DNA of 29,103 nucleotides from Candidatus Iainarchaeum sp. (GCA_038736825.1 JAVYME010000011.1:1-29103); one strand, 5' to 3'; positions 5,384-25,605 are shown, counted from the stretch's first letter. Made by a program: numbers and translations. Notes: a model not told the origin generated them from the letters alone.

Positions 5384-5398
5384 CAATTAGCAAGAAAG

Positions 5399-13556: not shown

Positions 13557-14552
13557 TTAATTCTTTTTTTTCTTTAAATCTGGAATTTTTTTTGCATTCA
13601 ACAAAAACATTCCAATCCTGATTTCATTGATTCTTTTCCTTAAATATTCTTCCACTCCTTTTTCTCCGCCCTCAGCCTGCGCTTTCAGCACTGGCAATCC
13701 AATGCCGCCCAAGTCAGCGCCCAAGATTATTCCCTTTATTATGTCTAAGCCGTTTCTTATTCCGCCACTTGCAATTATCTGACCCTTGAATTCCTGCCGG
13801 CACTCGTAAATGCTTATTGCTGTTGGTATGCCGAAATCCCAAAATGTTTCCCCTAGTTCGCGGTTGCCTCTCAATGATTCAAGTCCAATCCATGAGGTTC
13901 CGCCTGCTCCCTGCACATCTATTGCCTTTATGTTTGTCTTTGCCAGTTTTCTTGCAACCATCCAGCTTATGCCATGCCCTACCTCTTTCACATAAACTGG
14001 TTTTTTGAGTTTTTTTGATATTTCTGCAATTTTTTCAAACGCCATCCTGAAATCCGGGGTTCCATCTGGTTGCACTGCCTCTTGTGCTGCATTTAAGTGT
14101 ATTGCTAGAGCGTCAGCCCCAACATCCAATAATGCTTTTTCAATGCGGTCAATCGAGAATTCCATTAATTGTGTTGCCCCAATGTTGCCTGCTAAAAAAA
14201 TGTCTGGGGCTACATCCCGCACATAATAGGTTTCCTTTAATTCTGGCTTTTCAATCATTGCTCTTTGCGAGCCCAAACCCATTCCCAAGCCGAGTTTCTG
14301 GCAGGCTTTTGCAATATCCTTGTTTATTTTTTTTGCCCTTTCAGTGCCCCCAGTGATAGCGCTCACAATCAGGGGAGCACTGAGTTTTTTTCCAAGAAAT
14401 TCTGTTGAGCAATCTATTTCTTCCAAGGAAATGTCTGGAAGGCAATTGTATTGCAATTGCACTTTTTCAAGCCCTGTTGTCACGCTTTTAAAGCAAACAT
14501 TTTCCTTTAATGCAATGTCCAAGTGCTCTTCCTTTCTTTTCTCGATGCCCAT
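13557..14552 (-). CDS. fni: isopentenyl-diphosphate delta-isomerase, type 2 (FMN-dependent)
   Basis: The N-terminus RKEEHLDIAL is followed by a TIM-barrel FMN-enzyme pattern (GSQRAM, VKEVGHGIS, DVQGAGGTSW, ASGGIRNGLD). I use the ATG at 14552. A GTG at 14561 is an alternative. Confidence 0.9.
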   Translation of the reverse strand: MGIEKRKEEHLDIALKENVCFKSVTTGLEKVQLQYNCLPDISLEEIDCSTEFLGKKLSAPLIVSAITGGTERAKKINKDIAKACQKLGLGMGLGSQRAMIEKPELKETYYVRDVAPDIFLAGNIGATQLMEFSIDRIEKALLDVGADALAIHLNAAQEAVQPDGTPDFRMAFEKIAEISKKLKKPVYVKEVGHGISWMVARKLAKTNIKAIDVQGAGGTSWIGLESLRGNRELGETFWDFGIPTAISIYECRQEFKGQIIASGGIRNGLDIIKGIILGADLGGIGLPVLKAQAEGGEKGVEEYLRKRINEIRIGMFLLNAKKIPDLKKKKN

Positions 14553-14576
14553 ATTCACCACAATGTTGCAAAAAAG

Positions 14577-15335
14577 TTAAAATTGGACGCCTGTGTGCTC
14601 TGAAATTATTCCAAGGATTTCCTCTTGCTTTATTGGCCTTATGCCTTTTGTTGTCGCTATTTTCCACTGCATTTCCTTTGAAAAACCCCAAGTGCTGATG
14701 TAAACCTTTACTCCAAGCCTTTTTACGTCTATTGCGTTGTAAAGAGTGTCCTCAAAGAAAACCATTCTCGGAAAAGGGGTTTTTGCTTTTTGGGCTAGCA
14801 ATGAGAACTGCCGGTCCTTTTCATGTGATACTGTTTTGTCTATTATTTTTTCTTGCTCTAACCATATGCCCTGGCTTTCCAAAAACAAAAGGATTGATTC
14901 GGCATCCCTTGTGCTCACAATCCAAGTGTCTATCTGTTCCATTGCCTTTCCAAATGCATCTATCACCTTTGCGTGCGGTTTCATGGTGTTAAGCCAGGCA
15001 TCCCTGTCTTCCCTTAAAACCGCTTTTCTCTTATAGTATTCGGCTTCAAGGGCAAGCACTTTTGCCTCTCCCATTTTTTGCTTTAACTTGTTTATCTGCC
15101 ATCTTCCCATTTTTGTTGTGTCCTCTCCTTGCGCTATCAAGCCAATGATTGGCATTACGTCCTTTCCAGTCCTTATAAGGTGAGTGGAATTCGCAAATTT
15201 TTCAAAAAAGAATTCAGGCGCATAATCCGTGTTGTTCATTTCATTAAAGGTTTTTGTTGCAGCTTGCACGACTTCTTCAAGCGGGTTGACGAGCACGCCG
15301 TCAAAATCAAACACTGTTAACCAATTGCATTCCAT
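14577..15335 (-). CDS. HAD-superfamily hydrolase-like protein, substrate unknown
   Basis: 252 aa with HAD motif I FDFDGVL at residues 9-15, a Ser/Thr motif II candidate IVSTRD and an acidic motif FFEDT near the C-terminus. An AGGAG Shine-Dalgarno lies 9 nt upstream of the ATG. The gene is embedded between the fni and ipk genes. Confidence 0.6.
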   Translation of the reverse strand: MECNWLTVFDFDGVLVNPLEEVVQAATKTFNEMNNTDYAPEFFFEKFANSTHLIRTGKDVMPIIGLIAQGEDTTKMGRWQINKLKQKMGEAKVLALEAEYYKRKAVLREDRDAWLNTMKPHAKVIDAFGKAMEQIDTWIVSTRDAESILLFLESQGIWLEQEKIIDKTVSHEKDRQFSLLAQKAKTPFPRMVFFEDTLYNAIDVKRLGVKVYISTWGFSKEMQWKIATTKGIRPIKQEEILGIISEHTGVQF

Positions 15336-15359
15336 TCAAACCAACTCCTGTCAAGAATG

Positions 15360-15800
15360 CTATGCATTCTTTTTAACCATCATTTGATAAAGCAAGGGCG
15401 ACTGGGTTGAGTACACAGTGTAAGGCATTGTTTTTTGGCTTATCAGTCCAGCCTTTTTCATTGCCTCGTGATAGAATTCCGGAGGCGTGTGCCCTTCATA
15501 AAATTTTATTTCCGCTTGTTTTTTTCCCTCTTCTAGGGGTGCTTTTTCAAGTTTTTCCAAGTATTTTGCAAGGTTTATTGGTTCGCCTTTTTTTGCAGCC
15601 CTGTCAAACCAGGACAGGAATCTTTCTTTTTCTGTTGGAGGATAATTGAGCAAGCCAATCCATGTTGAAAGCATTTCCCTTGTTGCAGCCAGTTCTGTTG
15701 GAGTCCAACCACCAGAAACCCCTTTTTTTCCTTTCAACCCCTTTTGCTGGAAAACAACAGGCATCAGTTTTTTTCGCGTGTTTTTCGGTTTTGCAGGCAA
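15360..15800 (-). CDS. hypothetical protein (146 aa) within the mevalonate cluster
   Basis: A TTG start at 15800 lies 4 nt after an AAGGTGA whose TGA is the stop codon of the upstream ipk gene. The protein has normal composition and a basic N-terminus. I recognise no motif. Confidence 0.5.
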   Translation of the reverse strand: MPAKPKNTRKKLMPVVFQQKGLKGKKGVSGGWTPTELAATREMLSTWIGLLNYPPTEKERFLSWFDRAAKKGEPINLAKYLEKLEKAPLEEGKKQAEIKFYEGHTPPEFYHEAMKKAGLISQKTMPYTVYSTQSPLLYQMMVKKNA

Positions 15801-15804
15801 AATT

Positions 15805-16596
15805 TCACCTTATTATTGTGCCAGTTTTTTTGCCCAAAAGCGCTTTTTCTAGGTTTCCTTTTTTTTTTCCGCTGATTATGCTGCATTCCACTCCTTTTCC
15901 AGCCAATTCAACCAGTTCTTCCACTTTGTGCAGCATTCCGCCAGTGACATCTGTTCCATGCGAGCCTTTCAGCATTTTTTTTATTTTTTCAAAGTTTTTT
16001 CTTTCAATCAAGGGAATGAATTTTGCTTTTTTGTCTTTTAAGGGGTTTGAAGTGAAAACCCCTTTGGTGTTTGTTGCAACAATGAGTTTTTTTGCTTTCA
16101 ATTTTATTGCTAGTTCTCCCAGTATTTGCTCTGTGGAGACAATTGTAATGCCTTTTTTTGAATCCAATACTGCATCCCCATATGGCACTGGCAAAAAACC
16201 TTTTTCCAAGTATTGCTTGAATTGTTCAGTGAATGCCTTCCCGATTTTTCCATTTTCTGCCAAAAGCCAAGCGGATGGTTGCACGCTCACAGCGTTCTCT
16301 CCACTTTTTATTAGTTCTTTTACAACAAGACGGTTTAATCTTGCAGCAGCATCGCTTGTAAGCGCAAAGCCTTTCAATGAATTTTTTCCAGTTATTCCCT
16401 CTTTTACCTTGTACTTGTGTGCTGGATAGTGTGGAAAAGAGCCTCCTCCGTGTCCGACAATCAAGTCAATTTTTTTCTTTTTTCTTGCTGAATGGATTTC
16501 CCTGCAAAGCCTTGCAAGGGTTTTTTTGTCCAAGCATTCCCTTTTGGTTTTGTCGGTTATAAGGGAGCCGCCCAGTTTTACTAGCACTAAATTCAA
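15805..16596 (-). CDS. ipk: isopentenyl phosphate kinase (amino-acid kinase fold)
   Basis: 263 aa with LVKLGGSLITDK, VGHGGGSFPHYPAHKY and TDVTGGM motifs. The TTG start overlaps the upstream stop (TTGA). A GTG at 16587 is an alternative. Confidence 0.88.
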   Translation of the reverse strand: MNLVLVKLGGSLITDKTKRECLDKKTLARLCREIHSARKKKKIDLIVGHGGGSFPHYPAHKYKVKEGITGKNSLKGFALTSDAAARLNRLVVKELIKSGENAVSVQPSAWLLAENGKIGKAFTEQFKQYLEKGFLPVPYGDAVLDSKKGITIVSTEQILGELAIKLKAKKLIVATNTKGVFTSNPLKDKKAKFIPLIERKNFEKIKKMLKGSHGTDVTGGMLHKVEELVELAGKGVECSIISGKKKGNLEKALLGKKTGTIIR

Positions 16597-16979
16597 ATTT
16601 CCACTTCTCCCTTTGTTGCGTCAACCTTTACTTTCATGCAGTTTTGGATTTTTTCAATTTTTATTTTGTCCATGCAAGGAATTTCAGAAATTATTGCTCC
16701 CACTGCAACAATTGTTTCGCATTCTTTGTTGAGTATTGCGGCTGGCGCTTTTCCTGCTTTTTTCAACCTGTAAATTGCATAGCTTCCCACAGTGCTGCCT
16801 TTTCCGTTTGGAAAAACCAGGATTTTTCCAGCAATGCTTTGTCCTTCCAGGCAATGTCCTTTTTCCACTACAATTCCTTTTTCAAGGTCAATGCCACCAT
16901 AAAAGGAAAGCGGTTCCTTGCTTACCAGGGCTTCGCCTTCTGCTTTTCCTGCATAAATTGTTCTTCCCTTTAGTTTCAT
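16593..16979 (-). CDS. aconitase-X small (swivel, DUF126-type) subunit; phosphomevalonate dehydratase small subunit
   Basis: 128 aa. GKAEGEALVSKEPLSFYGGID...G..GQSIAGKILVFPNGKGSTVGSYAIYRL...GKAPAAIL...IVAVGAIISEIP matches the DUF126 pattern. A GGTGA Shine-Dalgarno lies upstream. Confidence 0.85.
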   Translation of the reverse strand: MKLKGRTIYAGKAEGEALVSKEPLSFYGGIDLEKGIVVEKGHCLEGQSIAGKILVFPNGKGSTVGSYAIYRLKKAGKAPAAILNKECETIVAVGAIISEIPCMDKIKIEKIQNCMKVKVDATKGEVEI

Positions 16980-16996
16980 TTTTTTTCACCTTTGCT

Positions 16997-18169
16997 TTAT
17001 TTTAGGGCTTCTTGCACGCATTCCTCCAGCGTGCGAATCCTTGTTTTGATTCCGTTGTGGCCGCCAGCATAATAGCATGCTTTTGCTGAATCTGTTACCA
17101 TTCCCTTAAATCGTCCCTTTATGGGTGCGACAGCCATGCAAGTGTCGCATGCAATTTTTGCGCCTGCTTCCTCTATTGCCTTTGTGTAACCCATTTTGTC
17201 AGCCAACTGCTTTGTCTGCCTTGCAGTGCAAATCCAGAACTCTTTTTTCACTTTTTTTCCGTTTAACAGTTCGGCTGTTTTTTGGATTTCGTTGATTGAA
17301 GCGTGAGGACAGCCTATTCCTATAAAGTCTATTTCCTCTGCAACATCAAATTTTGCCAGTGCTTCACTGAGTTCTTTTTCAGTAATTGTCATTTTTTTCT
17401 TTGGAATTATTGTTTTTGAAGGGGTTATTCCTTTCACGTGAAACATTGCGGTTCCCCCATATGTTGCTATTGCAGCGCAAAGGCTTTTCAGTTCTTCAAT
17501 TGAAGCACTGTTTATTCCTTCAATTAAGGGGATTTTGTTTCCGATTTTTTCCCCAATGATTCTGCCAAGCGCTCCAAATTTTGGCAGAGTGTCTATTTTT
17601 GCTTTTACGATTACGCGCACTTGGGCTTGCCTGTTTTTTTCCAAGTGCATTCCGTATTCTGGTGTTTTGCCGGTTAGAGCTGAAGCAATGGAGCTTGGGC
17701 CTCCTTCCCTGTTGGTTTTCGCGCCAATCACTGAGTTTGCAAAGCATACTGCGCTTGATTCGCTCCAAGCAATGTTTTCGCCAAACCTTGGCAGGTTGCC
17801 AATCAAATAGGGAGTGCAAGTGCACGTAACAGTTACCCCCATTTTTTTGAATGCTTCAATCACTTTCATTTGTTTTTCAGCAAAGCCTGTTTCTATTCCG
17901 AGTTTTTGCCATTCCTCTAAATCCATTCCCGCTGGATTGAGTGTTGTGAGCACTTTCACTTTTCCGTCGCGGCCCATTTCTTCCAAGAATTCGAGGCCTG
18001 CGTCGCCAAGGTTGTGATAGCTTACGCCTGCAATTTGAACGCTTTTCACGTCTATGAGCCTTTTTGCGCCATAAATTTTTCCCAGTGCTATAAGGATTTC
18101 CATGCTTTTCTTTACAGCGCTTCCCTGTTTTCCTGAAAGCATTTCTTTTTCTTGAAGAGTGAGTTTCAT
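16997..18169 (-). CDS. aconitase-X large (catalytic, DUF521-type) subunit; phosphomevalonate dehydratase large subunit
   Basis: MKLTLQEKEMLSGKQGSAVKKSMEILIALGKIYGAKRLIDVKSVQIAG... is the typical DUF521 N-terminus. I place the start at ATG 18169, preceded by GGAGGG, rather than at the ORF-track start 18211. Confidence 0.88.
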   Translation of the reverse strand: MKLTLQEKEMLSGKQGSAVKKSMEILIALGKIYGAKRLIDVKSVQIAGVSYHNLGDAGLEFLEEMGRDGKVKVLTTLNPAGMDLEEWQKLGIETGFAEKQMKVIEAFKKMGVTVTCTCTPYLIGNLPRFGENIAWSESSAVCFANSVIGAKTNREGGPSSIASALTGKTPEYGMHLEKNRQAQVRVIVKAKIDTLPKFGALGRIIGEKIGNKIPLIEGINSASIEELKSLCAAIATYGGTAMFHVKGITPSKTIIPKKKMTITEKELSEALAKFDVAEEIDFIGIGCPHASINEIQKTAELLNGKKVKKEFWICTARQTKQLADKMGYTKAIEEAGAKIACDTCMAVAPIKGRFKGMVTDSAKACYYAGGHNGIKTRIRTLEECVQEALK

Positions 18170-18170
18170 T

Positions 18171-18836
18171 TCAAGCCCTCCTTCTAGCAAATTTTTTTGT
18201 TGTGCCAGCAATCCTGTAGAGATCCCTGTGGATTTTGGAAGAATGGCCTTGCCTGATGATTTTTGGGTTTTTTCTTTTTCCTAGAAAGCTTGGTGCTTTT
18301 TCCATTGCTCCGTATGCATCAAACCTTATGTGTGGCGGCAGCCAGTTTTCTTTTTTTGCTTGTTCTAGGGCGCTTTTGGATAACAGGCAGCCTGTTTTTG
18401 GTTTGCCGCCCAACAACCTTAGTGCAGTGCAAATGTTGGCAATGTTTTCTCCGGTGTGCACAAATTCTTCCAGTACAAACACTTCTGGTTTTACTTTCAA
18501 GATGTCTGCGAGTTTTTTTCTGTTTTTTGCTATTTCTTCAGCCAGTTCTTCGGTTTTTTTTTCATTTTTTTCCTTGAATGCTTCTTCTTGCGAAAAATCT
18601 CTGGCTCTAGTGGGCATTCTTCCAAGCGAAAAAATGTTTGGCGGTTTTTCTGTTGGAAATTTTTGCCGCCATAAAAGCATGAAAAGTTTTATGGCTGGCC
18701 TGGCGCTTGTGCCTCCTGCCACGACTGTTGGAATTTTTTGTGCGTGGACAAATTCAATCATTGCTTCAACTGATTCCCTGAATTGTTTTGCTTCTTGCGG
18801 GTTGAAGAATTCAAGGCTGTTTTGTGCAATCTCCAA
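18171..18836 (-). CDS. uncharacterised protein with a degenerate phosphoribosyltransferase-like motif
   Basis: 221 aa. PTVVAGGTSARPAIKLF and PEVFVLEEFVHTGENIANICTALRLLG resemble the type I PRTase core and PRPP loop (hydrophobic4-acidic2-x-x-x-T-G), but they deviate from the consensus. A charged insert (EEAFKEKNEKKTEELAEEIAKNRKK) is present. The TTG start lies 4 nt after a GGGGTGA that contains the UbiD stop. Confidence 0.4.
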   Translation of the reverse strand: MEIAQNSLEFFNPQEAKQFRESVEAMIEFVHAQKIPTVVAGGTSARPAIKLFMLLWRQKFPTEKPPNIFSLGRMPTRARDFSQEEAFKEKNEKKTEELAEEIAKNRKKLADILKVKPEVFVLEEFVHTGENIANICTALRLLGGKPKTGCLLSKSALEQAKKENWLPPHIRFDAYGAMEKAPSFLGKRKNPKIIRQGHSSKIHRDLYRIAGTTKKFARRRA

Positions 18837-18840
18837 GGAT

Positions 18841-20142
18841 TCACCCCAAAAATTTTTTCAAGTCTGTTTTAGGGTATTTGACTTTTTCAAAGTCTTTTTT
18901 GTCCCTGTTTGCCGGAATTGTCAAGTCAAAGCCTGCCTTGCAAGTGTTTCTAGTGCTTTGGTCTGCGCTTGGATCCAGTGAAGAGCCTTTTTGTCCAGGG
19001 TATAAATGCAATTGTTTGTCTGCTTGAAACCTTGTGCTCATAGCCCATTCAATCTCGTTCGAGTTCAAAATATTGATGTCTGAGTCCACTACAAATGCAT
19101 GTTTTAGGGATGAGTGCCCTTTAAATGCTGCTTCTATTACTTTTTTTGGCTCGTCATCGCTTTTTTTGTCTATTTTGATTGCTGCATGCAGCCAAGAGCA
19201 GCCCCCATAGGTTACGTTCACATCCAATACTTTTGCTACCTTGCTTGTTTCCCTGAAAATTGTTGGTTCGCGCGGCATTCCCATTAAAACCCTGTGTTCT
19301 CCGCCTGCTGGCAGCAATGCGTGCCAGATTGCGTTTTTTTTGTGTGTTATTTTTTTGACAGTGAGCACTGGCTGTTCTCTTACAAAATCGTAAGTGCCGG
19401 TCAAGTCCAAAAAAGGGCCTTCTTTTTCCAGTTGGTTCATGCTCAGCGTTCCTTCCAATACAAATTCTGCTTCTGTTGGAACCGGCAAATCCGCTGTTTT
19501 TGCCCTCACTGTTTCGAATGGTTCAAGGGAATTAGCTATTTTTTGTTCTGATTCTCCAAGCGCTGGGCTTGTGGCTGCCGCCAGCAATATGTTTGCCGGC
19601 AATCCAATGCAGACAGCAACATCTATTTCGCCATTGTTTCTTTTCATGAATTCCATTGTGTGCCTTTCCAGAACCCTTACAGAAAACCTTGTTTTGTCCA
19701 ATTGCATGCAGCGATGGAATGCCATGTTCACTCCCAGTTCTTTGTCTCTGGCAATGAACACTCCTGAAGTGATGAAATTGCCTCCGTCTATTTCTGTGTA
19801 TTTGGTGATTGGCAGAGAGTCTAAATCCACTTTTTCCTCTATCACTTGCTGGCATGCTCCCTTGCTGGCTTCTTTTGGCTCGGATGGTTTTTCCAGTGCT
19901 TGAATCATTTTTGGAACAAGCTCTTCTGGTTTTATGCCAAAATATTCTGCCACTAGTTCTTTTGATGAAAAAGCGTTTCCCAAAACCTTGAACTTGGATT
20001 CCTTTATTTTTTCAAACAATACTGGTGTTCCATCCAATTCTTTCATTATTGCAGAGCACTCGTATTTTTTTGAAACCGGTTTTTTGATTCTTGCAAGTTT
20101 TCCTTTTTTTTCCATTTTTTCAATGAATGCTTCAAGGTTCAT
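18841..20142 (-). CDS. UbiD-family (prFMN-dependent) decarboxylase; by context, anhydromevalonate phosphate decarboxylase
   Basis: 433 aa with UbiD-like layout and length (LFEKIKES.., GGNFITSGVFIA.D.., MAFHR, GGCSWLHAAIKI). A GAGGTGG Shine-Dalgarno lies upstream. The ORF overlaps the ubiX stop by 11 nt. Confidence 0.8.
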   Translation of the reverse strand: MNLEAFIEKMEKKGKLARIKKPVSKKYECSAIMKELDGTPVLFEKIKESKFKVLGNAFSSKELVAEYFGIKPEELVPKMIQALEKPSEPKEASKGACQQVIEEKVDLDSLPITKYTEIDGGNFITSGVFIARDKELGVNMAFHRCMQLDKTRFSVRVLERHTMEFMKRNNGEIDVAVCIGLPANILLAAATSPALGESEQKIANSLEPFETVRAKTADLPVPTEAEFVLEGTLSMNQLEKEGPFLDLTGTYDFVREQPVLTVKKITHKKNAIWHALLPAGGEHRVLMGMPREPTIFRETSKVAKVLDVNVTYGGCSWLHAAIKIDKKSDDEPKKVIEAAFKGHSSLKHAFVVDSDINILNSNEIEWAMSTRFQADKQLHLYPGQKGSSLDPSADQSTRNTCKAGFDLTIPANRDKKDFEKVKYPKTDLKKFLG

Positions 20143-20692
20143 CTTTCCACCTCTTGTAAAGCGAGTTTTTTATTCCAAACAAGTCCATTATTTTTCCAGC
20201 CATAAACAATTCCAAGTCTTTTATTGTTTTTGGTTTTTGATAGAATGCCGGGCTTAATGGCATCACGATTCCGCCATAAAGTGCGATTTCTTGCAGGTTT
20301 TTCAGTGTTGGTGCACTCAAAGGGGTTTCTCTCACGCACACCACTATTTTTCTTTTTGTGCGAAGCATTATGTCCGCGCACCTGCTAATGAGGGTGCCTG
20401 TGTGTGCTGTTGCTATTTCTGAAACTGTTTTAACGCTTGCCGGCAAAACTATCATTCCTTCGCATAAAAAGCTTGAGCTTGCAATCCTTGCATTCATTTC
20501 GTTTTCACTATAACAGTAGTCTGCCATTTTTTCAAGTTCTTTTCTGCCAATACTGCATTCTTCTCTTGCCAGTTTTTCAGCCCAATCGCTTAAAACCAAG
20601 TGGGTTTCAATTTTTCTTTTTTTTAATTCTTTTAAAAGTGTTATTGCATAGTTTATGCCGCTTGCACCGCATACTGCCACTATTAGTTTCAT
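20132..20692 (-). CDS. ubiX: flavin prenyltransferase UbiX
   Basis: MKLIVAVCGASGINYAITLLKEL...HLVLSDWA...VLPASVKTVSEIA is the flavoprotein UbiX/Pad1 pattern. The ATG at 20692 lies 1 nt after the mevalonate kinase stop. The ORF-track start at 20701 is a TTG. Confidence 0.88.
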   Translation of the reverse strand: MKLIVAVCGASGINYAITLLKELKKRKIETHLVLSDWAEKLAREECSIGRKELEKMADYCYSENEMNARIASSSFLCEGMIVLPASVKTVSEIATAHTGTLISRCADIMLRTKRKIVVCVRETPLSAPTLKNLQEIALYGGIVMPLSPAFYQKPKTIKDLELFMAGKIMDLFGIKNSLYKRWKDEP

Positions 20693-20693
20693 T

Positions 20694-21620
20694 TCAACCA
20701 ATCCTTGTCCTGAATGCAGTTTTTCCAGTTTTTTCTATTGCTTTTGCCACTTTTTCCTGTAATTCTTTTCCGGGAGTCAGTGCAACCATTAAGCCGCCGC
20801 GCCCTGTGCCTGTGAGTTTTGCCCCTATTGCGCCGTTTTGCCTTGCAATTTCTATGAGTTCTTCCAGTTCCTTGCATGAAACCCCTATTTGTTTTAACAA
20901 TTCCTGGTTTTCGTTCATCAGTTTTCCTATTTTTTCAAGGTTGTTGTTTTGAAATGCCTTGATTGCGTTTTTTTCAATTTTGGCGTATTCTTTGAAGATT
21001 TTTTCAAATTCTTTTGGTTTTTCTTCTTTTGCCTTTTTCACTTCTCCTACAACCTTTGCAGTGTCGCTTGTTATTCCTGTGTTGCCAAGCACTATTTCAA
21101 CTGGTTTTATTTTGATTTTTTTTATTTGAATTCCTTTTTCTTCTTTTTTGAATCTTATCAGCCCGCCGTATACTGCGGCTGTGTTGTCTATTCCGCTTGG
21201 CGTTCCATGATAGCCTTTTTCGCCTTCAAATGCTGCTTCGTTTATTTGTTTGTCGTTCAAGCCCAAACTGAATTCTTCGTTTAATGCTCTTGCTATTGCT
21301 GCGCAGCTTGCAGCGCTTGCTCCAACGCCGCTTGCTGCAATTAGGTCTCCGCCGAGAGTGATTTCAACCGGTGTTTTTTCCGGGTTTATGCCGAGAAACC
21401 TGAAAATCAGTTTTATTGATTCTTCTTGCTGGCTTTCCTTTTGTTTTTTGTAGCCTGGTGTTTCAGGGCGATTGTCTATAATGCGGTACTGGCTGCCTTT
21501 TATGCGTTTTACTTGTGCTGTTGTGCTGCTGGTGATTGCTGAAGCGATTGCCGGCAAACCGTAAACGACAAAGTGTTCTCCGAACAAAATGGTTTTTCCA
21601 AACCCTTTTCCAAAACCCAT
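20694..21620 (-). CDS. mvk: mevalonate kinase (GHMP kinase)
   Basis: 308 aa with KTILFGEHFVVYG at the N-terminus, the GHMP motif GGDLIAASGVGASAASCAAIARAL and a C-terminal KLTGTGRGG. Confidence 0.9.
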   Translation of the reverse strand: MGFGKGFGKTILFGEHFVVYGLPAIASAITSSTTAQVKRIKGSQYRIIDNRPETPGYKKQKESQQEESIKLIFRFLGINPEKTPVEITLGGDLIAASGVGASAASCAAIARALNEEFSLGLNDKQINEAAFEGEKGYHGTPSGIDNTAAVYGGLIRFKKEEKGIQIKKIKIKPVEIVLGNTGITSDTAKVVGEVKKAKEEKPKEFEKIFKEYAKIEKNAIKAFQNNNLEKIGKLMNENQELLKQIGVSCKELEELIEIARQNGAIGAKLTGTGRGGLMVALTPGKELQEKVAKAIEKTGKTAFRTRIG

Positions 21621-21681
21621 GTTTTGCCCGCCAACTATTGAGGAATTAAGTTTTTTTAAGGCGTGCGGATTGCTGAAAGCC

Positions 21682-22083
21682 TCAATCCATTACTTTGAAC
21701 TTGTATGCATAGTTTATTGCACCGTATTTGTCAGCTTGCCCGATGCGCCTGAAGGCAAGTTGCACTTTTGCCCCGATTTTGATTTGTTTTTCCTCTGAGT
21801 CCACTATTTGTGCTAACACTTTTGCCTTGTTTTCCAGTTCTATTAGGGCAAGATAGTATGGGGTTTCATGGCTGAAACCGGTTGGCCCTACATGCACTCT
21901 AGTGTAAGAGTGGATTTTTCCAGTGCGAGGCATTTCTTGTTCGACTAGTTTTCCTTTTCTCCTGCAATTCGGGCAAACCACCCTGGTTGGAAAGAAAGCG
22001 GTTTTGCATGTTTCGCAATAAGTGCCTTTCAAGCGGTATCTTTCAGGAATTCTTCTCCAATTCATTGGTGCAGAAACAGTCAT
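21682..22083 (-). CDS. DUF35 OB-fold/zinc-ribbon protein (thiolase/HMG-CoA synthase scaffold)
   Basis: 133 aa with a CxxC...CxxC ribbon (CETCKTAFFPTRVVCPNCRRKG) followed by an OB-fold segment. A 4-nt ATGA overlap joins it to the thiolase stop. Confidence 0.85.
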   Translation of the reverse strand: MTVSAPMNWRRIPERYRLKGTYCETCKTAFFPTRVVCPNCRRKGKLVEQEMPRTGKIHSYTRVHVGPTGFSHETPYYLALIELENKAKVLAQIVDSEEKQIKIGAKVQLAFRRIGQADKYGAINYAYKFKVMD

Positions 22084-23252
22084 TTTTTTGCCTCCGCTTT
22101 TTTGAAAATGCTTACTATTGCTGTTGCGCCTGAACCGCCAACATTGTGGGTTAAGCCGATTTTTGCATTTTTTACCTGTCTTTTGTCAGCTCTTCCCATT
22201 AACTGGTTGAATGCTTCAACTGCTTGTGCCACGCCTGTTGCTCCCACGGGATGGCCTTTTCCTTTCAGTCCACCGCTCGGGTTTACTGGAATTTTTCCGT
22301 TTATTGCTGTAAGCCCTTTTTCTGTTGCAGTGCCGCCCTCGCCTTTTTTCACTAAGCCCAAGTCTTCTATTGCAAGGATTTCTGCAATTGTAAAGCAGTC
22401 GTGCACTTCTGCGAAATCAATGTTTTCTGGTTTTAGTCCTGTTTTGCTGTAGGCTTTTTGTGCAGCGATTCTTGTGGCTTTTAATTCTGTCAGGCTTTTT
22501 CTTGATGCCAGTGAAATTGTGTCGGATGCTTGTTCTGATGCCAGCATTTCAATGTATTTGAGTCCAAGTTCTTCTGCTTTTTCTTTAGAGCACAAGATTA
22601 CTGCGGCTGCTCCGTCTGTAACTGGGGAACAGTCTAGCACTTTTACTGGGGTTGCAACATAGCCTGAATTCATTACATCTTCTATTGTTATTTCTGACTG
22701 GAATTGGGCGTTGGGGTTGTTTGCTGCGTTTTTGTGGTTTTTCACTGCAACCATTGCCATTTGTTCTTCTGTTGTGCCAAATTCTTCCATGTGTCTTCTT
22801 GCAAGCAAAGCGTAAAGGCTTGGAAAGGTTGCTCCATGGAATAGTTCTGTTTCTTGGTCGCCTGCTCCGCCTAAAGCGAAAGAGGCTTCCTCTGTGCTTA
22901 CATCTGTCATTTTTTCAACTCCGCCTACTGCAACAATGCTGTGTTCTCCGCTTTTCACTGCCAGGTAACCGCTTCTCAGTGCAACTCCGCCTGAAGCGCA
23001 TGCTGCCTCACATCTCGTGCTTGGAATCGGGTTTAAGCCCAGCTGGTCTGCAATCAGTGCTCCAATGTGCTCTTGTCCTATGAATCTGCCTGAAGCCATG
23101 CAGCCTCCATAAATTGCCTCTATTTTTTCTCCAGCAAGCCCTGCGTCAACCAGTGCTTTTATTGCTGCGTCTGCAATCATTTGCCTGAAAGAGCTTTCCC
23201 AGTTTTCCCCGAATTTTGTCATTCCTGCTCCGACTACAACAACTTCTGTCAT
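22080..23252 (-). CDS. acetyl-CoA C-acetyltransferase (archaeal acetoacetyl-CoA thiolase)
   Basis: 390 aa with VVVVGAGMTKFG, the active-site region CEAACASGGVAL, and C-terminal GHPVGATG and NVGGSGAT. Confidence 0.9.
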   Translation of the reverse strand: MTEVVVVGAGMTKFGENWESSFRQMIADAAIKALVDAGLAGEKIEAIYGGCMASGRFIGQEHIGALIADQLGLNPIPSTRCEAACASGGVALRSGYLAVKSGEHSIVAVGGVEKMTDVSTEEASFALGGAGDQETELFHGATFPSLYALLARRHMEEFGTTEEQMAMVAVKNHKNAANNPNAQFQSEITIEDVMNSGYVATPVKVLDCSPVTDGAAAVILCSKEKAEELGLKYIEMLASEQASDTISLASRKSLTELKATRIAAQKAYSKTGLKPENIDFAEVHDCFTIAEILAIEDLGLVKKGEGGTATEKGLTAINGKIPVNPSGGLKGKGHPVGATGVAQAVEAFNQLMGRADKRQVKNAKIGLTHNVGGSGATAIVSIFKKAEAKK

Positions 23253-23260
23253 GATTACAC

Positions 23261-24316
23261 CTACAAGCTTTTGATTTTTCCCCTGTGTTTAAGGTATAAA
23301 GCGTAATCCACGTATTCTTTTTTTTCAATTTGTTTTAGCACTGGAATTTTTGCTCTGCGCTCTTCAATGTTTTTTGTGACTGTGATTGCGAAAGCGTCAG
23401 CTCCAGCGCCTGAACCATAACTGACTGCAAGGATTTTGTCTCCAGGTTTTGCTACATCAAGTATTGAGCACAATCCTATGGGGGTTGCTCCAGAATAAGT
23501 GTTTCCTATAAATGGCGTTATAAGCCCTTGCTTGACTTTTTCAAACGGAATGCCTAGCGCTTCAGCTGCTTTTACTGGAAATTTTCCGTTTGGTTGATGG
23601 AATACAGCCCAATCAAAATCTTTTCCCTCTAACCCGGTTTTTTTCAATAATAGTTTTGCTGCACCCAAAACGTGCTTGAAGTATGCTGGTTTGCCAGTGA
23701 AACGTCCAGTGTGCTCTGGAAATTCTGCTTTCGGCCTTCGCCAAAAATCCGGAGTGTCTGTTGTGAAAGAGCAAGTGCAATCTATTTCTGCAATTGTTTC
23801 TTTTGGGTTGGCGCCTATAAAGATTGCTGCTGCTCCACTGCCTGCAGTGAATTCTAGTGCGTCATTTGGTTTTCCTTGTGCTGTGTCTGCTCCTATTGCA
23901 AGCCCGACATCAATCATTTCTGCGAGCGCTTGTGCCATGCAAATCTGCATTCCAGCAGTGCCTGCCTTGCATGCAAATTCTAAGTCCACTGCAAAGTATT
24001 CATTGGTGGTTCCAAGGGCTTCTCCCACAATGCTGGAGGTAGGGTTTACTGCGTAAGGGTGTGATTCAGAGCCAACATATATTGCTCCAATTCTTTTTGG
24101 GTCAATGCCAAAGTCTGTGATTCCTTTTCTTGCAGCTTCAATTGCTAGAGTGCAAGAGTCCTCGTCTTGTGCTGCAACCGCTTTCTCTTTCACATTGAGG
24201 CTTTCGCCTATGTGCTCTCCGTCTTTGCCCCAAACCCTTGCTATTTCTTCCACTTTGATTCTGCGCAATGGAATTTGCACTCCATAACCTATTATGCCTG
24301 CTTTTTTTTCCTTCAT
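23261..24316 (-). CDS. hydroxymethylglutaryl-CoA synthase (archaeal type)
   Basis: MKEKKAGIIGYGVQIPLRRIKVEEIARVWGKDG... with the active-site context DLEFACKAGTAGM. The real start is ATG 24316, which overlaps the HMGR stop as ATGA. The 76 residues upstream in the ORF track are Arg/Lys-rich out-of-frame read-through of HMGR. Confidence 0.9.
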   Translation of the reverse strand: MKEKKAGIIGYGVQIPLRRIKVEEIARVWGKDGEHIGESLNVKEKAVAAQDEDSCTLAIEAARKGITDFGIDPKRIGAIYVGSESHPYAVNPTSSIVGEALGTTNEYFAVDLEFACKAGTAGMQICMAQALAEMIDVGLAIGADTAQGKPNDALEFTAGSGAAAIFIGANPKETIAEIDCTCSFTTDTPDFWRRPKAEFPEHTGRFTGKPAYFKHVLGAAKLLLKKTGLEGKDFDWAVFHQPNGKFPVKAAEALGIPFEKVKQGLITPFIGNTYSGATPIGLCSILDVAKPGDKILAVSYGSGAGADAFAITVTKNIEERRAKIPVLKQIEKKEYVDYALYLKHRGKIKSL

Positions 24317-25560
24317 TTTGCTTCCCTCATTTTTTTCAAAATGTTTCTTGCTTCGCCTTCGCTTATTTTTCCCATCCTTATCATTTGCTCTGCAGTTGTT
24401 TTTATTTCTTCTCCTTGGGCTCCTGCTTGGACTGCAATGTTTTCTGCGTGCAATTTCATGTGGCCTTTTTGTATTCCTTCTGAAACAATTGCTCTTAGTG
24501 CTGCAAAGTTTTGCGCCAAGCCGACTGCTGCAAAGCACTCGCATAATTCTTTTGCATTTTTTGCCCCCAATATTTTCAATCCAAGCCTTGCCATCGGGTT
24601 TGATTTGGTTGTGCCTCCTACAATGCCTGCTTGCACTGGCAATTCTATTTCTCCAACCAAATCCCCGTTTTTGTTTTTCCAGTACCGTGTGAGCGGCTTG
24701 TATTTTCCGCTTTTTGCAGCGAAAGCGTGGGCTCCTGCCTCTATTGCCCTGAAATCGTTGCCTGTTGCTATTGCGAGTGCTGTTATTCCGTTCATTATTC
24801 CCTTGTTGTGCGTGACTGCCCTGAAAATGTTTTTTTCTGCGAATTTTTGTGCTTTGATTATTCTTTCAATTGTTTCTTTTCCCAAGTCTTCTTTTTTCCA
24901 GACAGCGCTTGCTCTTGCAATTCGTTTCACTGCGTGGTTGGAGATTATTCTCATTAGGGCTTTTCCTTTTGTGATTTCTTCTATTTCTGGCGCGATTTTT
25001 TCGCACATTGTGTTTACTGCGTTTGCTCCCATTGCATCTAATACGTTTACAACCAGCCTTATTTCCAAGAATTCGCCTTGCTTTATTGTTTCCAGTGCGA
25101 TTGCTCCGCCGCCTTTTTCTTTGAGCACGCTGTCAACAGAGCTCGCTTTTTCCAATAACTGTTTTTTGTTTTTTTTGATTTCTTGCACTGCTTTTTTGTT
25201 TTTTATTCCAGTGAGCACTATTTGCCCTATCATGTGTTGTTCGCTTGCATTTGCTTGGAAGCCGCCTGCCTTTCTTGCAAGTTTTGCTGCCTTGCTTGCT
25301 GCTGCCACAACACTGGCTTCTTCTATTGCCATTGGAATAAAGAAATCTTTTCCGTTGATTTTGAAGTTTAGTGCAATGCTGAAGGGCAAAGCGAATTCGC
25401 CTAAAACGTTTTCGCTCATTCTGTTCAATGTTTCAAATTTGTCTTGCGGGATTGATTCCAGCAGTTTTTTTTCTTCTTCTGAAAGAGCGCATTCTCTTGC
25501 AATTGTTTCAATGCGTTCCTGCCATGGTTTTTCATAAAATTTTTCAATTTCAGAGTTCAT
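24313..25560 (-). CDS. hmgA: HMG-CoA reductase, class II-like
   Basis: 415 aa, soluble, with no membrane anchor. ENVLGEFALPFSIALNFKINGKDFFIPMAIEEASVVAAASKAAK and DAMGANAVNTM fit the class II (bacterial-type) signature rather than the class I ATTEGCLVAS. Confidence 0.88.
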   Translation of the reverse strand: MNSEIEKFYEKPWQERIETIARECALSEEEKKLLESIPQDKFETLNRMSENVLGEFALPFSIALNFKINGKDFFIPMAIEEASVVAAASKAAKLARKAGGFQANASEQHMIGQIVLTGIKNKKAVQEIKKNKKQLLEKASSVDSVLKEKGGGAIALETIKQGEFLEIRLVVNVLDAMGANAVNTMCEKIAPEIEEITKGKALMRIISNHAVKRIARASAVWKKEDLGKETIERIIKAQKFAEKNIFRAVTHNKGIMNGITALAIATGNDFRAIEAGAHAFAAKSGKYKPLTRYWKNKNGDLVGEIELPVQAGIVGGTTKSNPMARLGLKILGAKNAKELCECFAAVGLAQNFAALRAIVSEGIQKGHMKLHAENIAVQAGAQGEEIKTTAEQMIRMGKISEGEARNILKKMREAK

Positions 25561-25605
25561 TTTTCACACCAAATTTTGCACAAATATAACTCTTTTCACC
25601 CCACT

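What the first reader, a model, noticed from the sequence alone, without database searches (positions are those of the whole stretch)
13557..25560. Complete archaeal-type mevalonate pathway in one 12-kb, 14-gene, translationally coupled array
On the minus strand the order is: HMGR, HMGS, thiolase, DUF35, MVK, UbiX, UbiD-type decarboxylase, PRT-like ORF, AcnX-large, AcnX-small, IPK, 146-aa ORF, HAD-like ORF, IDI2. Junctions read from the sequence are as follows. There are 4-nt overlaps at 24313-24316 (ATGA), 22080-22083 (ATGA) and 16593-16596 (TTGA), and an 11-nt overlap at 20132-20142. The remaining gaps are 1, 1, 4, 4, 8, 17, 24 and 24 nt, plus a single 61-nt gap (21621-21681) that contains a TATA-like CCTTAAAAAAACTTA. 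The enzyme set matches the modified pathway described for Aeropyrum pernix: mevalonate-5-P is dehydrated by an aconitase-X enzyme to trans-anhydromevalonate-5-P, then decarboxylated by a UbiD/UbiX pair to isopentenyl-P, which IPK phosphorylates. The thiolase/HMGS/DUF35 channeling complex is also present. To my knowledge these genes are usually scattered in archaeal genomes. A single co-linear cluster is therefore unusual and allows guilt-by-association for the three unknown ORFs. It also looks like a transferable module, for example for lipid synthesis in a small-genome archaeon.
Basis: partly seen in the sequence, partly recalled or inferred. Interest (0 to 1): 0.75.

Follow-up and report, generated by a model that had tools for sequence, protein, structure and literature searches.

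The report
Complete archaeal mevalonate operon, DPANN archaeon
A small-genome (DPANN, Iainarchaeota) archaeon carries every gene of the known archaeal mevalonate pathway in one 12-kb array. The array is real and conserved throughout its lineage, but it is an ordinary chromosomal operon of a known pathway, and the more interesting lead is the recurring extra genes inside it.

Summary
Fourteen co-directional minus-strand ORFs (13557-25560) have exactly the junctions reported. Twelve pass curated family cut-offs:
- class II HMGR, HMGS, thiolase and DUF35;
- MVK, UbiX and UbiD;
- AcnX large and small subunits (phosphomevalonate dehydratase type);
- IPK, a HAD phosphatase and IDI2.

The window is a whole contig of a Candidatus Diapherotrites (Iainarchaeota) MAG.

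- **How unusual it is.** The full array, flanked by thyX and dtdA, recurs in at least seven related genomes or contigs, with AcnX identity down to 65%. It is therefore a vertically inherited lineage trait, not a unique or visibly mobile module. Elsewhere, MVK-UbiD-AcnX sub-clusters are the rule. Only 1 of 17 fully flanked metagenome loci held all 11 core genes.
- **Transcription.** Two invariant TATA-like blocks, upstream of HMGR and of MVK, argue for two promoters.
- **The three unknown ORFs differ.** The HAD gene is conserved. ORF8 is a divergent PRT-fold protein that is patchy and poorly conserved. The 146-aa ORF is the remnant of a ~470-aa SAM methyltransferase.

Across loci, HAD, HD or Nudix phosphohydrolases accompany arrays that include UbiX. 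This suggests, untested, that they supply dimethylallyl phosphate for prFMN. Overall this is a new member of a known kind, of moderate interest.

The parts
24313..25560 (-). HMG-CoA reductase, class II (415 aa)
   Evidence: PF00368 342 bits. TIGR00532 413 bits against a cut-off of 260; the class I model TIGR00533 scores only 61 bits.
23261..24316 (-). Archaeal HMG-CoA synthase (351 aa). The start ATG overlaps the HMGR stop (ATGA).
   Evidence: NF003274 515 bits and TIGR00748 502 bits. Junction.
22080..23252 (-). Archaeal acetoacetyl-CoA thiolase (390 aa)
   Evidence: NF004720 562 bits against a cut-off of 420. PF22691 and PF00108.
21682..22083 (-). DUF35 scaffold protein (133 aa; zinc ribbon plus OB fold)
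   Evidence: PF01796 66 bits and PF12172 36 bits. ATGA overlap with the thiolase gene.
21644..21659 (-). Conserved TATA-like block TTAAAAAAACTTAATT in the 61-nt DUF35-MVK gap. Proposed internal promoter P2.
   Evidence: 15 of 16 positions are invariant in the window, L001, L005, L007 and L008 (alignment A5). It is also present in L091. It is retained in L001 even though an extra 305-aa ORF is inserted upstream of it.
20694..21620 (-). Mevalonate kinase (308 aa)
   Evidence: TIGR00549 242 bits against a cut-off of 163.
20132..20692 (-). UbiX flavin prenyltransferase (prFMN synthase), 186 aa from the ATG at 20692
   Evidence: NF004685 206 bits against a cut-off of 188. Homologues are 184-186 aa.
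18841..20142 (-). UbiD-family decarboxylase (433 aa), inferred to be anhydromevalonate phosphate decarboxylase
   Evidence: TIGR00148 345 bits. All three UbiD Pfam domains match. A UbiD gene lies within 1.2 kb upstream of AcnX-L in 49 of 52 metagenome loci.
18171..18836 (-). ORF8: divergent phosphoribosyltransferase-fold protein (221 aa). A patchy accessory gene.
   Evidence: 38 homologue clusters in a full HMMER search. The family profile hits PRPP synthetase at 4e-6, a purine PRT at 2e-5 and HPRTs. 13 of 32 family members hit PF00156. AlphaFold2 model with pLDDT 86; top Foldseek hits are HGPRT and PyrR, with probability 0.99 but TM-scores of only 0.35-0.54. Absent from L002, L005, L007, L008, L012, L097 and L098.
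16997..18169 (-). AcnX large subunit, i.e. phosphomevalonate dehydratase large subunit (390 aa)
   Evidence: PF04412 514 bits. Matches T. kodakarensis PMDh (7cnr) at 1.9e-109. C116/C118, C287 and C344 are invariant across six relatives and lie close to the numbering of the three [4Fe-4S] ligands Cys122/297/356 of A. pernix PMDh (PMC10040528). The residue correspondence was not confirmed by alignment.
16593..16979 (-). AcnX small (swivel) subunit (128 aa)
   Evidence: PF01989 115 bits. NF003046 183 bits against a cut-off of 163.
15805..16596 (-). Isopentenyl phosphate kinase (263 aa, TTG start, TTGA overlap)
   Evidence: NF040647 220 bits against a cut-off of 120.
15360..15800 (-). ORF12 (146 aa): in-frame deletion remnant of a ~470-aa class I SAM methyltransferase. 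The methyltransferase domain is missing.
   Evidence: It aligns only to residues 3-8 and 327-467 of the L002 467-aa ORF. That ORF carries PF13847/PF08242/PF08241 at residues 182-298. ORF12 is absent from L001, L005, L007 and L008.
14577..15335 (-). HAD-superfamily phosphatase (252 aa), a conserved member of the array in this sub-lineage
   Evidence: PF00702 and PF13419 weak matches. Only 14 clusters in 5.8 billion proteins. The five family members whose contexts were examined (L005/L006, L007, L008/L009), plus L001, L002 and L093, all sit between IPK and IDI2. Residues at the positions expected for HAD motifs I-IV (D10, D12, T142, K173, E195, D196) are invariant.
13557..14552 (-). Type 2 IPP isomerase (331 aa from the ATG at 14552; 334 aa from the GTG at 14561)
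   Evidence: TIGR02151 380 bits against a cut-off of 281.
25579..25622 (-). Proposed promoter P1 upstream of HMGR: a BRE/TATA-like block ACGAAGGTTTTAAATAG (25606-25622) and a conserved TTATATT block (25579-25592)
   Evidence: Blocks are invariant in the window, L001, L005 and L008 (alignment A4). Coordinates.

Best explanation
This is the chromosomal mevalonate-pathway locus of an Iainarchaeota (Diapherotrites, DPANN) archaeon. It encodes every step from acetyl-CoA to IPP and DMAPP by the archaeal route.

The steps are:
1. Thiolase, HMGS and DUF35 make HMG-CoA.
2. A class II HMGR makes mevalonate.
3. MVK makes mevalonate-5-phosphate.
4. The two-subunit AcnX dehydratase makes trans-anhydromevalonate-5-phosphate.
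5. A prFMN-dependent UbiD decarboxylase, whose cofactor is made by the co-encoded UbiX, makes isopentenyl phosphate.
6. IPK makes IPP.
7. IDI2 interconverts IPP and DMAPP.

The array is most likely transcribed from two conserved archaeal promoters. P1 lies before HMGR and serves the four upper-pathway genes. P2 lies before MVK and serves the lower pathway. Short overlaps and Shine-Dalgarno-like motifs couple translation within each unit.

The array is inherited vertically at a fixed position between thyX and dtdA. Its ancestral form has 11-12 genes. Junctions act as slots in which accessory genes come and go.
- The HAD phosphatase is a conserved accessory of this sub-lineage. It is inferred, not shown, to act on a phosphorylated isoprenoid intermediate, most plausibly DMAPP to DMAP for UbiX.
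- ORF8 is a patchy PRT-fold protein of unknown role, possibly a ligand-binding regulator.
- ORF12 is a decayed methyltransferase.

Shown here: gene families, synteny, conservation and junctions. Inferred: enzyme specificities, operon structure and accessory functions.
For: - **Families.** All core genes pass curated cut-offs. AcnX-L matches the crystallised T. kodakarensis phosphomevalonate dehydratase at 1.9e-109. Three cysteines are invariant across six relatives, close to the numbering of the A. pernix cluster ligands (PMC10040528).
- **UbiD/AcnX linkage.** UbiD, AcnX-L and AcnX-S are all present in 17 of 17 fully flanked loci. UbiD lies within 1.2 kb upstream of AcnX-L in 49 of 52 loci. 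This ties the UbiD gene to the pathway.
- **Conserved array and flanks.** The same array and the same thyX/dtdA flanks occur in L001 (81-91% aa identity), L005, L007 and L008 (53-82%), L012 (29-78%, without HAD), L097 (32-78%, NCBI Diapherotrites MAG) and L098.
- **Promoters.** Promoter-like blocks are invariant while proteins have diverged to about 70% identity.
- **Flanks and composition.** Flanks are housekeeping genes: SerRS, aTrm56, TFE-alpha, XerA, tRNAs, an M16 peptidase, DtdA, ThyX and ParA. GC content is 0.38-0.45 inside the array and 0.31-0.47 outside it.
- **Relatives.** The nearest named AcnX relatives are Diapherotrites, Micrarchaeota and Aenigmarchaeota.
- **HAD.** Residues at the positions expected for the catalytic motifs are invariant.
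- **ORF12.** It is a truncation.
- **ORF8.** PRT fold.
Against: - No transcript or enzyme data exist for this organism.
- The UbiD protein could not be compared with a biochemically characterised anhydromevalonate phosphate decarboxylase. None is in the PDB, and its best solved relative is 6h6x/6h6v, deposited only as a UbiD-family decarboxylase.
- The promoter assignment rests on conservation and resemblance to archaeal BRE/TATA elements only.
- HMGR matches a model named 'degradative'. That is the class II family name, not evidence of catabolism.
- The 29-kb contig carries no prenyltransferase or ether-lipid genes, so use of the products for membrane lipids cannot be shown here.
- The HAD substrate is unknown. 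The closest solved structures are only remote: MDP-1 at 7e-6, over 40 residues.
Confidence: 0.85

Rival explanations
1. The array is a horizontally mobile 'lipid-precursor cassette' that this small-genome archaeon acquired recently.
For: - HMGR is class II, the type common in bacteria.
- The scaffold is plastic. In L091/L092 UbiX-UbiD are replaced by diphosphomevalonate decarboxylase plus phosphomevalonate kinase.
- MVK of L012 and L097 is only 29-32% identical to the window's MVK, while neighbouring genes are 57-78% identical.
- A LAGLIDADG homing-endonuclease gene sits inside the L007 array.
- Near-complete arrays in the same gene order, but without the thyX/dtdA flanks within 10 kb, exist in L010 and L032.
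Against: - Identical thyX and dtdA flanks occur in every Iainarchaeota relative, down to 65% AcnX identity.
- There is no integrase, transposase or repeat boundary at the array ends. XerA lies 6 kb away among housekeeping genes.
- There is no compositional break.
- The closest AcnX relatives are all DPANN.
- HMGR-II is reported as widespread in DPANN (PMC6107057).
Confidence: 0.08
2. The UbiX/UbiD pair, and perhaps AcnX, serve another pathway such as quinone or aromatic-acid metabolism, and merely sit next to the mevalonate genes. On this view the lower pathway here is incomplete or different.
For: The UbiD family is functionally broad. The best solved relative is 6h6x/6h6v, deposited only as '3-polyprenyl-4-hydroxybenzoate decarboxylase and related decarboxylases' (2.5e-72). 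NCBIfam places the protein only at subfamily level.
Against: - UbiD lies within 1.2 kb upstream of AcnX-L in 49 of 52 loci, and MVK is present in 16 of 17 fully flanked loci.
- No PMK, MDD or PMD gene is present in the window, so the MVK product would have no other route to IPK's substrate.
- AcnX-L is far closer to archaeal PMDh (369 bits) than to hydroxyproline dehydratase (219 bits).
Confidence: 0.04
3. The accessory genes (HAD, ORF8, ORF12) are unrelated hitch-hikers inserted at permissive junctions, with no role in isoprenoid metabolism.
For: - ORF8 and ORF12 are absent from most relatives.
- ORF12 is a remnant.
- A homing endonuclease also inserts into the array.
- The ORF8 homologues in L090 and L094 have no visible mevalonate neighbours.
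- HAD is a very large superfamily.
Against: - HAD is retained in every member of its sub-lineage examined, with invariant residues at the expected catalytic positions.
- HAD, HD and Nudix hydrolases recur at several different slots. They are found in 16 of 27 arrays that include UbiX, against 3 of 23 arrays without it. All three of those are contigs truncated inside UbiD.
- The ~470-aa methyltransferase family recurs in two different slots: L002 versus L098 and L029.
Confidence: 0.3

Closest known systems
Archaeal (trans-anhydromevalonate phosphate) mevalonate pathway of Aeropyrum pernix and Methanosarcina mazei (Hayakawa et al. 2018, cited from memory and via PMC10040528 and PMC12547664)
   Same: The enzyme set is the same: MVK, two-subunit AcnX-type phosphomevalonate dehydratase, UbiD-type decarboxylase with UbiX-made prFMN, IPK and IDI2.
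   Different: All genes, including the upper pathway and UbiX, lie in one array here. In the model organisms they lie at several loci (my recollection, not tested here). HMGR is class II. The array also carries a HAD phosphatase and a PRT-fold protein that are not part of the described pathway.
Archaeal thiolase/HMGS/DUF35 complex operon (Vogeli et al. 2018, from memory)
   Same: The same three genes are tightly coupled, with an 8-nt gap and a 4-nt overlap.
   Different: Here they are embedded between HMGR and the lower pathway. Formation of the complex was not tested.
Bacterial mevalonate gene clusters of Firmicutes and Streptomyces, and the MVA gene synteny catalogued by Hoshino and Gaucher 2018 (PMC6107057)
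   Same: The principle is the same: a complete mevalonate pathway as one syntenic set. That paper already notes MVA genes and HMGR-II in Diapherotrites.
   Different: Those clusters use PMK and MDD. The 2018 catalogue did not include the AcnX and UbiD steps among its 13 enzymes, so it could not show that the array is complete.
E. coli supply of DMAP for UbiX by the Nudix hydrolases NudJ/B/F/I (Wang et al. 2018, as summarised in PMC12359138)
   Same: A phosphohydrolase is needed to make the monophosphate prenyl donor for UbiX. Here a phosphohydrolase gene sits in the same array as ubiX.
   Different: The superfamily differs (HAD rather than Nudix), and the activity is purely inferred.

Membership tests
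Archaeal-type (anhydromevalonate phosphate) mevalonate pathway | Two-subunit type II AcnX (phosphomevalonate dehydratase) with three Cys ligands for a [4Fe-4S] cluster | tested here: met
   PF04412 514 bits and PF01989 115 bits, on separate adjacent genes. 1.9e-109 to TkPMDh 7cnr. C116/C118, C287 and C344 are invariant in relatives and lie close to the numbering of Cys122/297/356 of ApPMDh (PMC10040528). The residue-by-residue correspondence was not aligned.
Archaeal-type (anhydromevalonate phosphate) mevalonate pathway | UbiD-family decarboxylase specific for trans-anhydromevalonate-5-phosphate, with a UbiX prFMN synthase | tested here: inconclusive
   UbiD (TIGR00148, 345 bits) and UbiX (NF004685, 206 bits) family membership is met. 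Linkage to AcnX holds in 49 of 52 loci. Substrate specificity and orthology to characterised AMPDs could not be tested, because no characterised sequence was available to the tools.
Archaeal-type (anhydromevalonate phosphate) mevalonate pathway | MVK and IPK present; PMK, MDD, PMD and M3K absent | tested here: met
   MVK TIGR00549 242 bits. IPK NF040647 220 bits. No other GHMP kinase or decarboxylase ORF in the window. Absence elsewhere in the genome cannot be tested from one contig.
Class II HMG-CoA reductase | Scores above the cut-off for the class II model and below it for the class I models | tested here: met
   TIGR00532 413 bits (cut-off 260). TIGR00533 61 bits (cut-off 442).
Type I phosphoribosyltransferase fold (ORF8) | PRPP-binding loop (hydrophobic strand, two acidic residues, then xxxxGxT) on a Rossmann-like PRT core | tested here: inconclusive
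   - The motif VFVLEEFVHTGEN is present, and G129 is invariant in the family.
- The family profile hits PRPP synthetase at 4e-6 and purine PRTs at 2e-5, but only over about 45-75 residues.
- 13 of 32 members hit PF00156, but the window protein itself does not.
- Foldseek top hits are HGPRT and PyrR at probability 0.99, but with TM-scores of 0.35-0.54 and E-values above 0.001.
- The fold relationship is likely. Catalytic competence is untested, and the second acidic residue varies across the family.
HAD-superfamily phosphatase (14577-15335) | Motifs I-IV: DxDx(T/V), S/T, K and (E/D)D | tested here: met
   D10, D12, T142, K173, E195 and D196 are invariant in 14 family members. They sit where motifs I-IV are expected (my reading of the sequence). 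PF00702 28 bits. Substrate not testable with these tools.
Class I SAM-dependent methyltransferase (ORF12) | Rossmann-fold SAM-binding domain with the GxGxG motif | tested here: not met
   ORF12 aligns only to the first few residues and the C-terminal 140 residues of the L002 467-aa homologue. It lacks residues 182-298, which carry PF13847/PF08241. It is a remnant, not a methyltransferase.
Mobile genomic island | Integrase or transposase at the boundary, flanking repeats or a tRNA target, a composition shift, and variable flanks among relatives | tested here: not met
   No such genes adjoin the array. GC content is continuous. The thyX and dtdA flanks are conserved in at least seven relatives. 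Flanking direct repeats were not specifically searched for.

The most novel reading that the evidence does not exclude
The non-orthologous phosphohydrolases embedded in DPANN mevalonate arrays are the missing supplier of dimethylallyl monophosphate (DMAPP to DMAP) for UbiX/prFMN in the archaeal pathway. These are HAD here, and HD-domain or Nudix proteins in other lineages. In addition, the PRT-fold protein (ORF8 family) and the ~470-aa methyltransferase would be previously unrecognised accessory or regulatory components of archaeal isoprenoid-precursor synthesis.
Probability: 0.25. Interest if true: 0.6.

Novelty: new member of a known kind. Interest (0 to 1): 0.42.

Why it matters
The locus is a natural, compact, single-locus version of the ATP-saving archaeal mevalonate pathway, including its cofactor synthase. 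That makes it a convenient template for heterologous expression.

It also shows that at least one DPANN lineage keeps a full isoprenoid-precursor pathway. Many DPANN are thought to depend on hosts for lipids.

The comparative data add two testable leads.
- A phosphohydrolase repeatedly travels with ubiX in these arrays. This may answer how archaea obtain the DMAP needed for prFMN.
- Within one conserved scaffold, single steps have been swapped in place. MVK has been replaced by a distant MVK, and UbiX-UbiD by MDD-PMK. This is a concrete picture of how the different mevalonate pathway types could interconvert.

Tried and rejected
- **Exact-sequence look-up of the window's UbiD** found nothing.
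- **Word-indexed homologue search for ORF8** found only itself. The full HMMER scan was needed to find relatives.
- **Single-sequence AlphaFold2 model of ORF8** was useless (pLDDT 56). The alignment-based model was good. Even so, Foldseek gave only modest TM-scores, so I do not claim a catalytic PRT.
- **Bacterial-type promoter and terminator scans** gave counts no higher than shuffled sequence. That is expected for an archaeon, and they were not used.
- **Rfam and tRNA scans** found only three tRNAs, all outside the array.
- **The Nudix gene in the Aenigmarchaeota array (L096).** I first read it as a DMAPP hydrolase. NCBIfam shows it also resembles type 1 IPP isomerase, with all matches below cut-off. 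I therefore count Nudix hits only as 'phosphohydrolase-superfamily', with that caveat.
- **The association of ORF8 homologues with mevalonate genes.** It looked independent at first (L091). However, L091 shares the MVK (73% identity) and the P2 motif with the window. It is the same scaffold, not independent evidence.
- **Key primary papers** (Hayakawa 2018, PMC6176645; Kanno 2024, PMC11337835) are not held. Statements about gene scattering in model archaea therefore rest on memory.
- **A catabolic role for the cluster**, suggested by the 'degradative' HMGR model name, was rejected because MVK, IPK and IDI2 are present.

Full report
**Source and observation.** The window is a complete 29,103-bp contig of an NCBI metagenome-assembled genome labelled Candidatus Diapherotrites archaeon. 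ORF8 is identical to its protein QXK06_02850, and the longest contig carrying it is 29,103 bp. The closest relatives are labelled Candidatus Iainarchaeum. This genus belongs to phylum Iainarchaeota, kingdom Nanobdellati, i.e. DPANN.

On the minus strand between 13557 and 25560 there are 14 consecutive ORFs. I recomputed every junction.
- The three 4-nt overlaps are at 24313-24316, 22080-22083 and 16593-16596.
- The 11-nt overlap is at 20132-20142.
Both choices fit the lengths of homologues.
- GGTG/GGAGG-like motifs lie 5-10 nt upstream of almost every start.

**Gene identities.** Curated profile searches place the genes as follows.

| Coordinates | Assignment | Best model and score |
|---|---|---|
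| 24313-25560 | HMG-CoA reductase, class II | TIGR00532, 413 bits (class I model only 61 bits) |
| 23261-24316 | Archaeal HMG-CoA synthase | NF003274, 515 bits |
| 22080-23252 | Archaeal thiolase | NF004720, 562 bits |
| 21682-22083 | DUF35 (zinc ribbon plus OB fold) | PF01796, PF12172 |
| 20694-21620 | Mevalonate kinase | TIGR00549, 242 bits |
| 20132-20692 | UbiX | NF004685, 206 bits |
| 18841-20142 | UbiD family | TIGR00148, 345 bits; all three Pfam domains |
| 16997-18169 | Aconitase X, large subunit | PF04412, 514 bits |
| 16593-16979 | AcnX swivel subunit | PF01989, 115 bits; NF003046, 183 bits |
| 15805-16596 | Archaeal isopentenyl phosphate kinase | NF040647, 220 bits |
| 13557-14552 | Type 2 IPP isomerase | TIGR02151, 380 bits |

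The AcnX large subunit matches the crystallised Thermococcus kodakarensis phosphomevalonate dehydratase at 1.9e-109. It matches bacterial hydroxyproline dehydratase much less well. Three of its cysteines are invariant across six relatives. They lie close to the numbering of the three [4Fe-4S] ligands defined in the A. pernix enzyme (PMC10040528), although I did not align the two proteins.

The enzyme set is the archaeal trans-anhydromevalonate-phosphate pathway, complete from acetyl-CoA to IPP and DMAPP and including the prFMN synthase. The specificity of the UbiD protein is inferred, because no characterised anhydromevalonate phosphate decarboxylase was available for comparison. Its best solved relative is 6h6x/6h6v, deposited only as a UbiD-family decarboxylase. 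However, a UbiD gene lies within 1.2 kb upstream of AcnX-L in 49 of 52 related loci.

**How unusual is the arrangement?** I collected 98 related loci from a genome collection, from exact-protein look-ups and from a metagenome scan. I mapped the window's proteins onto them.

The same array is bounded by a tandem-domain thyX on one side and dtdA on the other in these loci:
- L001, a Lac Pavin Iainarchaeum MAG with 81-91% protein identity;
- L005, L007 and L008 (53-82% identity);
- L012 (AcnX 68%, no HAD gene);
- L097, an NCBI Diapherotrites MAG (AcnX 65%), which also shares the window's more distant wHTH and M16-peptidase neighbours;
- L098, a 508-kb contig.

L002, L006, L009 and L093 are truncated copies. 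The arrangement is therefore a conserved, vertically inherited feature of this lineage.

Outside the lineage, arrangements are more fragmentary. Of 17 metagenome loci with full 10-kb flanks, all had UbiD-AcnXL-AcnXS and 16 had MVK. Only one (L012, the same lineage) had all 11 core genes, and one more (L032) had 10. Typical forms are:
- MVK-UbiD-AcnXL-AcnXS(-IPK-IDI2);
- in a Micrarchaeia MAG, IPK-UbiX-UbiD-AcnXL-AcnXS (L095);
- in an Aenigmarchaeota MAG, MVK-UbiX-UbiD-AcnXL-AcnXS-Nudix-x-IPK (L096);
- in L003, the lower pathway fused to UbiA, G1P dehydrogenase and GGGP synthase genes.

This sample is biased towards close AcnX relatives, because only the best 80 of at least 549 were kept.

The literature already says that MVA genes 'usually form gene clusters' (PMC11052028). 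It tabulates MVA synteny by phylum, records MVA genes in Diapherotrites and records HMGR-II in DPANN (PMC6107057). That catalogue did not include the AcnX and UbiD steps among its 13 enzymes. I found no paper in the held library that describes the complete array.

My verdict is that sub-clusters are common. The all-in-one array is uncommon, but it is typical of its lineage and not singular.

**No evidence for a mobile module.** The flanks are housekeeping genes: KaiC-like, tRNA-Phe/Lys/Met, SerRS, aTrm56, TFE-alpha, XerA, an M16 peptidase, DtdA, ThyX and ParA/MinD. GC content is continuous across the boundaries. The flanks are conserved among relatives. The nearest named AcnX relatives are all DPANN.

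**Transcription.** The 61-nt DUF35-MVK gap contains TTAAAAAAACTTAATT (21644-21659). This is invariant at 15 of 16 positions in five genomes whose proteins are only about 70-80% identical. It is retained in L001 although a 305-aa ORF has been inserted just upstream, and it is present in L091. Upstream of HMGR, a BRE/TATA-like block ACGAAnnnTTTAAATAG (25606-25622) and a TTATATT block (25579-25592) are likewise invariant. I therefore propose two promoters: P1 for the four upper-pathway genes and P2 for the lower pathway. This is an inference from conservation. Read-through from P1 is not excluded.

**The three unknown ORFs.**

*HAD (14577-15335).* Its family has only 14 clusters among 5.8 billion proteins. 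In every context examined it lies between IPK and IDI2. The residues at the positions expected for the HAD motifs are invariant. It is a genuine, lineage-specific member of the array. Its substrate is unknown, and the nearest solved structures are only remote.

*ORF8 (18171-18836).* A full HMMER scan found 38 homologue clusters.
- The family profile hits PRPP synthetase (4e-6) and purine PRTs across the PRPP loop.
- 13 of 32 members hit PF00156.
- An alignment-based AlphaFold2 model (pLDDT 86, pTM 0.84) finds HGPRT and PyrR as top structural matches, with modest TM-scores.

However, ORF8 is absent from L002, L005, L007, L008, L012, L097 and L098. Where it occupies the same slot (L001, L093) it is only 32-37% identical, while its neighbours are 77-91% identical. 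Its closest relative (44%) is not from the closest genome. It is thus a patchy, poorly conserved accessory gene that may be exchanged between genomes.

*ORF12 (15360-15800).* This is not a small unknown protein. It aligns to the first few and last ~140 residues of a 467-aa class I SAM methyltransferase that occupies the same slot in L002, and it lacks the methyltransferase domain. It is absent from L001 and from the more distant relatives. It is a deletion remnant.

**Wider patterns (leads, not conclusions).** I took a census of genes inserted between core genes in all loci.
- The largest group is HAD phosphatases: 14 members in three different slots.
- Next come HD-domain proteins, Nudix proteins, the ~470-aa methyltransferase family and the PRT-like family. 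The methyltransferases of L002 and L098 are 29% identical over 484 residues (E 5e-30). Family members also occur in L029 and L027.
- Among loci of at least 8 kb, a phosphohydrolase lies in or beside 16 of 27 arrays that include ubiX. The same holds for 3 of 23 arrays that do not, and all three of those contigs are truncated inside ubiD.
- Fisher's exact test gives p = 0.001, or 9e-6 without the truncated contigs. This is uncorrected for phylogeny.

In E. coli, the DMAP needed by UbiX is produced by Nudix hydrolases acting on DMAPP, or by phosphorylation of prenol by ThiM (PMC12359138). The archaeal pathway yields isopentenyl phosphate and DMAPP. As far as I know, it has no described DMAP source. 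My working hypothesis is that these phosphohydrolases, including the window's HAD, make DMAP for prFMN. I put the probability at about 0.25-0.3.

The scaffold also shows replacements in place.
- In L091/L092, DUF35 and an MVK 73% identical to the window's (with the same P2 motif) are followed by diphosphomevalonate decarboxylase (TIGR01240, 336 bits) and phosphomevalonate kinase (TIGR01220, 247 bits) instead of UbiX-UbiD. An ORF8 homologue follows them.
- In L012 and L097 the MVK is only 29-32% identical to the window's MVK, while neighbouring genes are 57-78% identical.

**Verdict.** The pathway assignment is well supported at family level. The claims of singularity and transferability are not supported. 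This is an ordinary, if unusually complete, chromosomal operon of a known pathway in a public MAG: a new member of a known kind. Its added value lies in the accessory genes and the comparative picture. Interest is 0.42.

Noticed in passing
L091 1-4977 and L092 (Logan SRR32456895/SRR32456876): A relative with the same DUF35-MVK scaffold (MVK 73% identical, same P2 motif) carries diphosphomevalonate decarboxylase plus phosphomevalonate kinase where the window has UbiX-UbiD. An ORF8 homologue follows them. This looks like an in-place swap of mevalonate pathway type. The contig ends before it is clear whether AcnX and IPK remain.
   Followed up: partly
L012 and L097 (MVK gene, e.g. L097 7165-8160): MVK in these syntenic arrays is only 29-32% identical to the window's MVK, although neighbouring genes are 57-78% identical. 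The L097 copy still scores as mevalonate kinase (TIGR00549, 182 bits). This looks like in-place displacement by a distant MVK.
   Followed up: partly
L007 3117-4421: A 434-aa LAGLIDADG_3 homing-endonuclease-like gene is inserted between the thiolase and DUF35 genes of an otherwise identical array.
   Followed up: no
L002 3184-4587; L098 4865-6280; L029 about 2138-3184; L027 about 5047-6063: A ~470-aa class I SAM methyltransferase family with long N- and C-terminal extensions recurs inside mevalonate arrays in two different slots (IPK|HAD and DUF35|MVK). The window's ORF12 is its remnant. The substrate is unknown. A role in modifying an isoprenoid precursor is conceivable.
   Followed up: partly
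L010, L011, L028, L049 (HD domain, 193-209 aa); L010, L048, L096 (Nudix, 165-174 aa); L098 7804-8679 and L029 (291-308 aa unknown): Besides HAD proteins, HD-domain and Nudix proteins and an unknown ~291-aa protein sit between UbiX/UbiD/AcnX genes in other lineages. The L096 Nudix also resembles type 1 IPP isomerase, with all matches below cut-off.
   Followed up: partly
window 25721-27199 (+): The thyX gene encodes a 492-aa protein with two Thy1 domains, about twice the usual length. It is a tandem-domain ThyX. The same length (492-497 aa) is seen in L005, L008 and L097.
   Followed up: no
window 25638-25650 (-): A conserved motif CAATTGTCGTAAT (consensus CAATYGWCGTAWT) lies about 20 nt upstream of the HMGR BRE/TATA block in the thyX-HMGR divergent intergenic region. 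It is conserved in four genomes. It may be a transcription-factor site.
   Followed up: no
window 10935-12656 (-): A 573-aa ORF with no family match is conserved next to dtdA in relatives. It is only 28-54% identical where neighbours are 70-85% identical. The L097 counterpart has a weak CARDB hit. It may be a fast-evolving surface protein.
   Followed up: no
L003 17618-20276: In a different archaeon (UbiD 41% identical), the lower mevalonate genes run straight into UbiA-family prenyltransferase, Fe-ADH-type G1P dehydrogenase and PcrB/GGGP synthase genes. Together they form a precursor-plus-ether-lipid supercluster.
   Followed up: no
P0021 (2999-aa protein): A giant protein matches the ORF8 family in five separate stretches (E 1.6e-12). 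This suggests repeated PRT-like modules. It was not examined.
   Followed up: no
L001 7579-8496: A 305-aa ORF with a weak C-terminal winged-helix (HTH_12) hit is inserted between DUF35 and the conserved P2 motif, in the place of the window's 61-nt gap. The window has a separate 186-aa ORF with the same weak hit at 10360-10920.
   Followed up: no
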